This document shows positions 39,083 through 39,135 of a stretch of 64,000 nt of DNA, one piece after another. How positions within the stretch are numbered: the stretch's first letter is position 1; every line of letters starts with the position of its first letter. The stretch is from the sequence record OL656110.1; one strand, given 5' to 3'. The notes below the pieces were generated by a model, which did no database searches, had not been told where the DNA came from, and saw nothing but the letters and a program-made list of their open reading frames with translations. This DNA is from Escherichia phage vB_EcoM-RPN242. The translations under genes were made by a program, and so were the position numbers.

Positions 39083-39093
39083 TTGTCAACTCC

Positions 39094-39101
39094 TATAAAT
39101 A
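39094..39101 (+). promoter_or_regulatory. T4-type late promoter (TATAAATA)
   Basis: exact TATAAATA 35 nt upstream of the start of a tail-tube-family gene. Confidence 0.5.
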
Positions 39102-39135
39102 ATAACAGTTATTTTATTTAAGTGGAGTCCTCATC

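What the first reader, a model, noticed from the sequence alone, without database searches (positions are those of the whole stretch)
39083..39135. Exact T4-type late promoters (TATAAATA) before structural/late genes
TATAAATA occurs at 39094-39101 (plus strand, before the tail-tube-family gene) and at 58088-58095 (minus strand, before ORF 57759-58064). I found no other exact copies in intergenic DNA. This implies gp55-type late transcription and marks these genes as late.
Basis: partly seen in the sequence, partly recalled or inferred. Interest (0 to 1): 0.4.

Follow-up and report, generated by a model that had tools for sequence, protein, structure and literature searches.

The report
Predicted late promoters of Ackermannviridae phage
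The two TATAAATA boxes are very probably genuine T4-style late-gene promoters of a ViI-like (Ackermannviridae) phage, but they belong to a larger set built on a shorter TAAATA core that has already been predicted in print for close relatives, so the finding is real but ordinary.

Summary
TATAAATA occurs exactly twice in the window, at 39094-39101 (+) and 58088-58095 (-). The count alone is not significant (0.7 expected). Both copies, however, lie in sense orientation 34 and 23 nt upstream of a start codon.

The window is an Agtrevirus genome segment, 98.9% identical to Escherichia phage LHE287 and 93% to Shigella phage Ag3. It encodes gp33; near-identical genomes encode gp55 and gp45.

The conserved signal is the 6-bp core TAAATA, not the 8-mer. 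In the window, 11 of 17 copies lie 23-38 nt upstream of starts (p 2e-15). The figures are 27 of 60 in LHE287 and 29 of 74 in the distant Kuttervirus CBA120 (p about 1e-30 each). The copies precede virion, endolysin and resolvase genes. There is no -35 element, and A is enriched at the T4 +1 position.

The two bases that make these copies "exact T4" are not conserved: orthologues read GCTAAATA or CTAATTA.

The 39094 site was published as a putative late promoter of Ag3 in 2011. TAAATA boxes are annotated in the LIMEstone1 GenBank record. I found no experimental start-site mapping. Verdict: real, probably functional, already known in silico, low novelty.

The parts
39094..39101 (+). TATAAATA box (core TAAATA 39096-39101). 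Predicted gp55-type late promoter for the gp54-like baseplate/tail-tube initiator gene. Predicted +1 is A at 39107. The box ends 34 nt before the GTG at 39136.
   Evidence: The box is conserved in Agtrevirus, Limestonevirus (as TATAAGTA) and Kuttervirus while the spacer next to it varies. The same sequence is listed as a putative late promoter of phage Ag3.
39115..39122 (-). CTTAAATA box (core TAAATA 39120->39115) on the opposite strand. Predicted late promoter for gp2 (DNA end protector). It lies 32 nt before the ATG at 39082; predicted +1 is A at 39109.
   Evidence: Conserved in all relatives. Annotated as 'putative late promoter' -10 signal (TAAATA) in LIMEstone1 GenBank HE600015.
38378..39082 (-). 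gp2-like DNA end protector gene (late gene in T4).
   Evidence: phrog_429, E 1.6e-67; annotation of LHE287.
39136..40080 (+). gp54-like baseplate tail-tube initiator gene.
   Evidence: phrog_3629, E 5e-177; annotated T4-like gp54; noted as a confirmed structural protein in LIMEstone1.
58088..58095 (-). TATAAATA box (core 58093->58088). Predicted late promoter for ORF 57759-58064. It lies 23 nt before the ATG at 58064; predicted +1 is A at 58082.
   Evidence: The orthologous position holds TATAAATA, CTAAATA or CTAATTA in 20 of 21 relatives.
58096..58111 (-). Conserved G+C hairpin (AGCCCC-TTCG-GGGGCT) directly after the stop of the 906-aa gene (58120-60840) and abutting the box. It is a terminator-like or RNA-end element without a T-run.
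   Evidence: The terminator scan did not call it because it has no T-run.
57759..58064 (-). 101-aa ORF of unknown function downstream of box 2.
   Evidence: phrog_4048 and phrog_33165, unknown function.
19112..19117 (+). TAAATA box (CCTAAATA), 34 nt before gp48 (baseplate tail tube cap, 19152-20120).
19134..19139 (-). TAAATA box (CTTAAATA), 32 nt before gp4 (head completion, 18487-19101). With the previous box it forms a second interdigitated divergent pair.
45221..45226 (+). TAAATA box (CATAAATA), 34 nt before gp5 (baseplate hub/tail lysozyme, 45261-46871).
   Evidence: Listed as Porf084 in the Ag3 paper and annotated in LIMEstone1.
43908..43913 (+). Variant box TAATTA (TTATAATTAC), 28 nt before gp26 (43942-44748). 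The orthologous box is TATAAATA in LIMEstone1 and CBA120.
42886..42891 (-). TAAATA box, 38 nt before the RuvC-like resolvase gene (42257-42847). It lies in the 5' arm of a hairpin whose 3' arm abuts the AUG.
   Evidence: annotated as a putative late promoter in LIMEstone1.
54083..54088 (-). TAAATA box, 30 nt before the endolysin-family gene (53258-54052). It lies in the 5' arm of a hairpin that pairs with the Shine-Dalgarno sequence.
57706..57711 (-). TAAATA box, 32 nt before the MobD.6/DUF5856 gene (57320-57673). It sits in the loop of the hairpin AATCCCCC...GGGGGATT.
   Evidence: the identical arrangement occurs in CBA120.
4545..4550 (+). TAAATA box, 26 nt before ORF 4577-5002. This ORF heads a small cluster that ends in a Hoc-like/Ig-domain structural protein gene (5404-6213).
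   Evidence: orthologous box in CBA120.
4996..5001 (+). TAAATA box, 31 nt before ORF 5033-5425.
   Evidence: orthologous box in CBA120.
41476..41721 (-). gp33-like late-transcription co-activator gene, the trans-acting partner encoded in the window.
   Evidence: PF16805 Trans_coact, E 8.4e-18; phrog_254, E 3e-20.

Best explanation
Both TATAAATA boxes are -10-type recognition elements of promoters used late in infection. The polymerase would be host core RNA polymerase carrying the phage's gp55-like sigma factor, helped by the gp33 co-activator and the gp45 sliding clamp, as in T4. In this phage family the element that matters is the hexamer TAAATA, equivalent to T4 positions -11 to -6. C is weakly preferred at -12 and nothing is conserved further upstream. 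Transcription is predicted to start at an A six bases downstream: 39107 on the + strand for gp54, and 58082 on the - strand for ORF 57759-58064. The resulting leaders of 17-29 nt carry the Shine-Dalgarno sequence. The flagged interval 39083-39135 holds two interdigitated promoters. The + box drives gp54. A - strand box (39115-39122) drives gp2 with predicted +1 at 39109. The two start sites therefore lie between the boxes and the two open complexes would overlap. Shown here: motif positions, enrichment, cross-genus conservation, absence of a -35 element, and presence of the protein machinery. Inferred from T4: gp55 recognition, clamp dependence, late timing and the exact start sites.
For: (1) Machinery. 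gp33 is in the window. gp55 and gp45 are in LHE287, which is 98.9% identical over the region compared, and in Ag3, ViI and CBA120 (PMC3121705; PMC3184105).
(2) Position, window. 11 of 17 TAAATA lie in sense 23-38 nt upstream of starts, against 0.34 expected (p 2.4e-15).
(3) Position, LHE287. 27 of 60 TAAATA are in promoter position (p 1.6e-30), while the 14 other hexamers of the same composition give 0-11.
(4) Independent replication in CBA120, from a different subfamily. 29 of 74 are in promoter position (p 7e-30) against 3-12 for controls. TAAATA is also the rarest hexamer of its composition class there.
(5) Gene class. 13 of 21 heads of annotated virion-gene units carry the box, against 14 of 84 others (Fisher p 8e-5, odds ratio 8.1). 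Virion genes without it (gp23, gp20, gp26, gp19, gp4) carry the one-mismatch variants TAAGTA or TAATTA.
(6) No information at -45 to -1, and -35 matches equal to random positions.
(7) A is enriched at the 6th nt after the box, which is the T4 +1 position: 18 of 27 in LHE287 and 15 of 29 in CBA120.
(8) Phylogenetic footprint. In the gp2/gp54 spacer both boxes are kept while the 13 nt between them change. At site 2 the core is kept in 20 of 21 relatives.
(9) Boxes before the endolysin and resolvase genes lie in the 5' arm of hairpins that sequester the ribosome site. The hairpins are kept by compensatory changes. This is the T4 gene e/49 design, which only makes sense if transcription starts just downstream of the box (PMC3014915).
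Against: I found no transcript 5' ends or timing data for any Ackermannviridae phage. gp55 and gp45 are outside the window, so they are shown only in near-identical genomes. Site 1 also matches a sigma-70 consensus (TTGCCA-16 nt-AATAAT, 10 of 12). The whole gp2/gp54 spacer is highly conserved, including the ribosome sites, so conservation of the boxes there is less discriminating than at site 2. The ORF after site 2 has unknown function and lies among replication genes. About half of the TAAATA boxes precede genes not annotated as virion genes (DNA polymerase, regA, UvsW, hypotheticals), so 'box = late gene only' is not established.
Confidence: 0.78

Rival explanations
1. Site 1 is an ordinary host sigma-70 promoter: -35 TTGCCA at 39076-39081, a 16-nt spacer, and -10 AATAAT at 39098-39103. 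The TATAAATA match would be incidental overlap with its -10 region.
For: The consensus scan gives a 10 of 12 match with 16-nt spacing.
Against: The -35 hexamer lies on the gp2 start codon and N-terminal codons, so its conservation is explained by coding. In Kuttervirus the -10 becomes AATATC and the -35 becomes TGGCCA or TAGCCA, while TAAATA is kept. The other 26-28 TAAATA sites show no -35 signal. The gene is a baseplate protein. Dual use is not excluded.
Confidence: 0.1
2. The boxes are chance A+T-rich words in short intergenic spacers and have no promoter function.
For: The count of the exact 8-mer is within chance: 2 observed, 0.7 expected, and 14% of shuffles reach 2.
Against: Other hexamers of the same composition are not concentrated upstream of starts in either of the two whole genomes tested. 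The boxes are orientation-specific, associated with virion genes and conserved between subfamilies at about 60% genome identity.
Confidence: 0.04
3. At site 2 the A/T stretch after the conserved GCCCC-TTCG-GGGGC hairpin is the tail of a terminator or RNA-stabilising 3'-end element for the upstream 906-aa gene, not a promoter.
For: The hairpin is conserved in all 21 relatives and directly abuts the box. One relative (L047) keeps the hairpin with a TTTATT tail and no box.
Against: The tail is not T-rich (TTATAAATAA, or TAAATACATC), so the terminator scan does not call it. What is conserved after the hairpin is specifically TAAATA or TAATTA, at a fixed 23-25 nt before the next start. Terminator-plus-late-promoter modules occur elsewhere in the genome, for example 57696-57719. 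The two functions are compatible.
Confidence: 0.08

Closest known systems
Bacteriophage T4 late promoters (gp55/gp33/gp45-dependent; TATAAATA at -13 to -6)
   Same: A single -10-region element with no -35. The core TAAATA is identical to T4 positions -11 to -6. A lies at the predicted +1, six nt downstream. The boxes are placed before virion, lysis and some recombination genes. Homologues of gp55, gp33 and gp45 are present. Late boxes are embedded in hairpins that hide the ribosome site of a lysis gene and a resolvase gene, as at T4 genes e and 49 (PMC1524935; PMC3014915).
   Different: Positions -13 and -12 (TA in T4) are essentially free here, with C favoured at -12 (12 of 27 and 17 of 29 sites). 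Only 4 of the 27 promoter-position boxes in LHE287 and 4 of 29 in CBA120 are the exact T4 octamer (the exact octamer occurs 5 times in each whole genome). The variants TAAGTA and TAATTA serve major genes such as gp23 and gp20. Nothing has been shown experimentally.
Aeromonas phage Aeh1 putative late promoters (CTAAATA from -12), and S-PM2/cyanophage NATAAATA
   Same: These are T4 relatives in which the first one or two positions of the octamer have drifted. Aeh1 has C at -12, as in most Ackermannviridae virion-gene boxes (aCTAAATA) (PMC1524935; PMC2984593).
   Different: They are different phage lineages. In Ackermannviridae C at -12 is a preference, not a requirement.
Putative late promoters published for Shigella phage phiSboM-AG3 (Table S2B) and annotated in Dickeya phage LIMEstone1 (HE600015)
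   Same: Ag3 'Porf072' is tctttgccatttgtcaactcctataaata, which is identical to window 39073-39101. 'Porf084' is the gp5 box. LIMEstone1 annotates the TAAATA hexamers before gp2, the RuvC-like gene and gp26 as 'putative late promoter' -10 signals; before gp5 the annotated hexamer is CATAAA, offset 2 nt from the core. Its paper reports 33 late promoters.
   Different: The Ag3 paper assigned the + strand box to gp2 (orf072), although it faces gp54. Its consensus came from three sites. Neither paper reports enrichment statistics, start sites or the site-2 box.
E. coli sigma-70 promoters
   Same: Site 1 overlaps a 10 of 12 consensus match.
   Different: There is no -35 signal across the TAAATA class. 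TAAATA lacks the invariant final T of a sigma-70 -10 hexamer (general knowledge).

Membership tests
T4-type (gp55-dependent) late promoter | -10-region element TATAAATA or a close variant | tested here: met
   Exact octamer at both sites. Across the class only TAAATA is invariant.
T4-type (gp55-dependent) late promoter | No -35 element or other upstream sequence requirement | tested here: met
   Information content is about 0 at -45 to -1 in 27 + 29 sites. The best -35 matches are the same as at random positions.
T4-type (gp55-dependent) late promoter | Phage encodes gp55 late sigma, gp33 co-activator and gp45 clamp | tested here: met
   gp33 is in the window (PF16805, E 8e-18). gp55 (phrog_234, 6e-52) and gp45 (phrog_223, 1e-64) are in the 98.9%-identical LHE287 genome, just outside the window. 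The window itself does not contain them.
T4-type (gp55-dependent) late promoter | Located immediately upstream of late (virion/lysis) genes | tested here: met
   Site 1 precedes gp54, with gp2 on the other strand. Genome-wide association gives Fisher p 8e-5. For site 2 this is inconclusive because the ORF has unknown function.
T4-type (gp55-dependent) late promoter | Transcription starts about 6 nt downstream of the box, usually at A | not testable with these tools
   Indirect evidence only: A is enriched at that position (18 of 27 and 15 of 29). A is present at 39107, 39109 and 58082.
T4-type (gp55-dependent) late promoter | Active late and coupled to DNA replication through the clamp | not testable with these tools
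   No transcriptome or in vitro data were found for this family.
Sigma-70 promoter | -35 and -10 hexamers with a 16-18 nt spacer, conserved among relatives | tested here: inconclusive
   Site 1 gives a 10 of 12 match, but the hexamers are degraded in Kuttervirus. Site 2 has no match.
Intrinsic terminator (site 2 hairpin) | G+C-rich hairpin followed by a T-run | tested here: not met
   The hairpin is present and conserved, but there is no T-run and the scan does not report it.

The most novel reading that the evidence does not exclude
The gp55 of Ackermannviridae may recognise only a 6-bp core (TAAATA, -11 to -6, tolerating G or T at the fourth position) with a C preference at -12. That is a shorter code than T4's octamer. 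It would be read on DNA in which many thymidines are hypermodified in this family (my recollection; one search supports only a DNA modification in CBA120). The family arranges these boxes in conserved higher-order designs. One design is interdigitated divergent pairs (gp2/gp54 and gp4/gp48) whose open complexes must exclude each other. Another places boxes inside hairpins that restrict translation of endolysin and of the RuvC-like resolvase to late transcripts, recreating the T4 gene e and gene 49 controls on non-homologous genes.
Probability: 0.5. Interest if true: 0.3.

Novelty: already known. Interest (0 to 1): 0.17.

Why it matters
This gives a usable rule for annotating Ackermannviridae, a family widely used for biocontrol and phage engineering. 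Late transcription units can be recognised by TAAATA 20-42 nt upstream of the start, not by the T4 octamer. Searching for the octamer finds only 2 of at least 11 sites in this window. It also points to timing controls on the endolysin and resolvase genes that matter when these phages are engineered, for example for reporter or tailspike insertions. It does not change what is understood about gp55-type transcription.

Tried and rejected
(1) Judging the finding from the count of the exact 8-mer: uninformative, with 2 observed against 0.7 expected.

(2) A crude greedy ORF-based gene call for the window mis-called several genes, including gp33. I replaced it by mapping the LHE287 annotation onto the window with blastn.

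(3) The inverted repeat ATAAC-A-GTTAT between the two boxes (39103-39113) as an operator or hairpin. Its loop is too short, and the sequence differs in Kuttervirus and Limestonevirus. Partial palindromy follows from the mirrored promoter pair. Rejected.

(4) Pfam on LHE287 gp55 and gp45 gave no hit; PHROGs identified both.

(5) PDB sequence searches with gp55 and gp33 gave no hits at E 0.01 or below, so no structure-based look at DNA-recognition residues was possible.

(6) Literature searches for transcriptomes or start-site maps of Ackermannviridae found none. A 2024 family review does not mention promoters or transcription.

(7) A phage-specific early-promoter pattern (TTCAATAA/TTCTATAA ... 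TATAAT), seen by eye in LHE287, gave only 3 loose matches in the window against 0.6 in shuffles. Not pursued.

(8) ORF 54667-55329 (+) looked like an insertion, but it overlaps the annotated minus-strand gene and has no family hits. It is probably spurious.

Full report
**Observation.** A search for TATAAATA on both strands of the window returns exactly two matches, at 39094-39101 (+) and 58088-58095 (-).
- The statement that there are no other exact copies is therefore correct.
- The number itself is unremarkable. Dinucleotide-preserving shuffles give 0.70 copies on average, and 14 of 100 shuffles give two or more.
- The placement is informative. The first box ends 34 nt before the GTG of ORF 39136-40080 (+). 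The second ends 23 nt before the ATG of ORF 57759-58064 (-). Each has a Shine-Dalgarno sequence in between.
- Sense-oriented windows 15-45 nt upstream of gene starts make up 2.0% of strand positions, so both copies landing there by chance has p about 4e-4.

**What the window is.**
- Megablast of 36000-42000 finds 98.9% identity to Escherichia phages YX22 and LHE287, and 93% to Shigella phage Ag3, the type Agtrevirus of the Ackermannviridae.
- Annotation of LHE287 mapped onto the window shows that 39083-39135 is the whole divergent spacer between gp2 (DNA end protector, 38378-39082, -) and a gp54-like baseplate tail-tube initiator (39136-40080, +). PHROGs confirm both assignments.
- The window also encodes the late-transcription co-activator gp33 (41476-41721, -; PF16805, E 8e-18).
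- The late sigma gp55 and the clamp gp45 lie just outside the window in LHE287 and are recognised by PHROGs.
- The Ag3 and CBA120 papers report all three genes in the family (PMC3121705; PMC3184105).

**The real motif.** Reading the upstream regions of the other late genes in the window shows that they do not carry TATAAATA. They do share its last six bases:

| Gene | Box |
|---|---|
| gp4 | CTTAAATA |
| gp48 | CCTAAATA |
| gp2 | CTTAAATA (other strand, inside the flagged interval) |
| gp5 | CATAAATA |

- In the window, 11 of the 17 TAAATA copies lie in sense 23-38 nt upstream of a mapped start, where 0.34 would be expected (p 2.4e-15).
- In the complete LHE287 genome, 27 of 60 copies do so (p 1.6e-30). 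The 14 other hexamers with the same base composition give 0-11, and the higher values come from words that overlap the motif.
- I repeated the test on Escherichia phage CBA120 (Kuttervirus, a different subfamily, A+T-richer). There 29 of 74 copies are in promoter position (p 7e-30), against 3-12 for controls. TAAATA is also the rarest word of its composition class in that genome.
- The boxed genes are largely orthologous in the two genomes: gp48, gp54, gp2, gp5, gp22, gp18, gp14, gp6, tailspikes, the large virion-associated protein, endolysin, RuvC-like resolvase and UvsW.
- Among heads of transcription units in LHE287, 13 of 21 annotated virion genes carry the box, against 14 of 84 others (Fisher p 8e-5).
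- Virion genes that lack it carry TAAGTA (major capsid protein) or TAATTA (portal, gp26, gp19, gp4). These are the only two single-mismatch variants with raised promoter-position fractions in both genomes.

**Anatomy of the class.**
- Upstream of the core there is no information from -45 to -1, apart from a preference for C immediately before it (12 of 27 and 17 of 29 sites) and a weak A before that. Matches to a -35 hexamer are no better than at random positions.
- Downstream, A is enriched at the sixth base after the box (18 of 27; 15 of 29). This is the +1 position if TAAATA occupies -11 to -6 as in T4, whose octamer spans -13 to -6 (PMC1524935).
- The class therefore meets the sequence-level definition of a gp55-type late promoter, but with a 6-bp rather than an 8-bp core.
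- It resembles the CTAAATA late promoters proposed for Aeromonas phage Aeh1. It also fits the general observation that -13 is poorly conserved outside T4, and the NATAAATA motif of S-PM2 (PMC2984593).

**Conservation of the two flagged sites.**
- In 20 related loci from IMG/VR, the gp2/gp54 spacer keeps both boxes. LIMEstone1 has TATAAGTA on the + strand. The 13 nt between the boxes differ between genera.
- At site 2 the hairpin GCCCC-TTCG-GGGGC and a box are kept in 20 of 21 loci. The box reads TTATAAATAA in Agtrevirus and Limestonevirus, but GCTAAATAC or GCTAATTAC in Kuttervirus.
- The 'TA' that makes the window's copies exact T4 matches is therefore not under selection. The exactness is incidental.

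**Architecture of the flagged interval.**
- The + box (39094-39101) and the - box (39122-39115) face each other across 13 bp.
- The predicted starts are A 39107 (+) and A 39109 (-), so they lie between the boxes. Each mRNA leader contains the complement of the other box, and the two open complexes would overlap.
- The gp4/gp48 spacer (boxes 19112-19117 + and 19134-19139 -) has the same design, with the same 32 and 34 nt box-to-start distances.
- The inverted repeat ATAAC-A-GTTAT between the boxes is not conserved and is not a plausible hairpin.

**Rival explanations.**
- A sigma-70 consensus match (TTGCCA, 16 nt, AATAAT; 10 of 12) overlaps site 1. Its -35 lies on the gp2 start codon, and both hexamers are degraded in Kuttervirus while TAAATA is retained. 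I rate this rival at about 0.1; dual use cannot be excluded.
- At site 2 the box abuts a conserved hairpin, but there is no T-run and the terminator scan does not call it. A 3'-end element and a promoter can coexist.
- Pure chance is excluded by the controls above.

**Supporting side observation.**
- Several boxes lie in the 5' arm of a hairpin whose 3' arm covers the ribosome-binding site.
- For the endolysin-family gene (53258-54052, phrog_1224) the pairing is AAAUACCUCUGCA...UGUGGAGGUAUUU (-16.1 kcal/mol). For the RuvC-like resolvase gene (42257-42847, phrog_159) it is a 15-bp stem ending at the AUG (-19 to -22 kcal/mol, depending on the flanks included in the fold).
- Transcripts starting at the predicted +1 lose the 5' arm and fold weakly, at -4.6 and -4.0 kcal/mol.
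- CBA120 keeps both hairpins through changes on both arms.
- This is the arrangement described for T4 genes e (lysozyme), 49 (endonuclease VII), soc and I-TevI. There, early read-through RNA is untranslatable and late-promoter transcripts are translated (PMC3014915).
- It is indirect evidence that transcription really starts just after these boxes.

**What is already known.**
- The Ag3 genome paper searched for TATAAATA with one mismatch. Its Table S2B lists 'Porf072 tctttgccatttgtcaactcctataaata', which is identical to window 39073-39101. It also lists the gp5 box.
- That paper attributed the first to gp2, although the box faces gp54.
- The LIMEstone1 paper reports 33 putative late promoters. 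Its GenBank record marks the TAAATA hexamers before gp2, the RuvC-like gene and gp26, and the overlapping CATAAA before gp5, as 'putative late promoter' -10 signals.
- The CBA120 paper stated that the late recognition sequence had not been identified for the family.
- A 2024 family review does not discuss transcription at all.
- I found no experimental mapping.

**Verdict.**
- The interpretation, gp55-type late promoters, is well supported by comparative and statistical evidence, but it needs three corrections. The functional core is TAAATA. There are at least nine more such boxes in the window, including one in the same interval on the other strand. And the late status of ORF 57759-58064 rests only on the box.
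- The site and the idea are already in the literature as in silico predictions, so novelty is low.
- My confidence that both boxes are functional late promoters is about 0.78.
- Interest is about 0.17.

Noticed in passing
window 54053-54090 (-), leader of endolysin-family gene 53258-54052: The late box TAAATA (54083-54088) lies in the 5' arm of a 13-bp hairpin whose 3' arm contains the Shine-Dalgarno GGAGG. Read-through RNA folds at -16.1 kcal/mol, while RNA starting at the predicted late +1 folds at -4.6. CBA120 keeps the hairpin with compensatory changes. This is the same logic as T4 lysozyme gene e.
   Followed up: partly
window 42848-42893 (-), leader of RuvC-like resolvase gene 42257-42847: A 15-bp hairpin (AUAAAUAGCCCAUA...UAUGGGCUAUUUAC) runs from the late box to the base before the AUG. 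CBA120 and LIMEstone1 keep it with a matching change in both arms. It parallels T4 gene 49 (endonuclease VII). The + strand TAAATA at 42849-42854 is simply the other arm.
   Followed up: partly
window 57696-57719 (-): The hairpin AATCCCCC-TAAATACA-GGGGGATT, followed by TTCTTTTTCT, looks like an intrinsic terminator after ORF 57759-58064. It carries a late box in its loop, 32 nt before the MobD.6/DUF5856 gene. The arrangement is identical in CBA120.
   Followed up: partly
window 19102-19151: This is a second interdigitated divergent late-promoter pair (gp4 <-> gp48). It has the same 32/34-nt box-to-start spacing as gp2 <-> gp54, and its predicted start sites (19123 +, 19128 -) lie between the boxes.
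   Followed up: partly
window 62689-62694 (-) and 62102-62107 (-): Two further TAAATA copies lie upstream of genes but outside the 15-45 nt window. One is in the loop of the hairpin GGGCAC...GTGCCC, 78 nt before the start at 62610. The other is 9 nt before the longest-ORF start at 62092, or 105 nt before the annotated start at 61996. They may be late promoters with unusual leaders, or chance.
   Followed up: no
window 58120-60840 (-): For this 906-aa protein of unknown function (phrog_3867), blastn (one alignment kept per query) matches only the first 580 nt of the 3375-nt orthologue in LHE287. The CBA120 orthologue is annotated 'possible fusion protein'. The gene appears to have a mosaic, variable C-terminal part.
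   Followed up: no
window 29964-29991 (-), 48190-48213 (-); many sites in LHE287: Early-region genes are often preceded by TTCAATAA or TTCTATAA followed 10-15 nt later by TATAAT-like hexamers, often next to a G+C hairpin. This may be a family-specific early promoter with an atypical -35. A loose pattern gave only 3 hits in the window against 0.6 in shuffles.
   Followed up: partly
window 39076-39103 (+): A sigma-70-like match (TTGCCA, 16 nt, AATAAT; 10 of 12) overlaps the gp54 late box. It is not conserved in Kuttervirus.
   Followed up: yes
window 47322-47672 (-) and 56652-57359 (-): The window is about 1.45 kb longer than LHE287 between about 46.9 kb and 58.1 kb. It includes ORFs absent or shorter in LHE287; CBA120 has an orf107 counterpart after the primase gene. 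This looks like small accessory-gene indels typical of the family.
   Followed up: no
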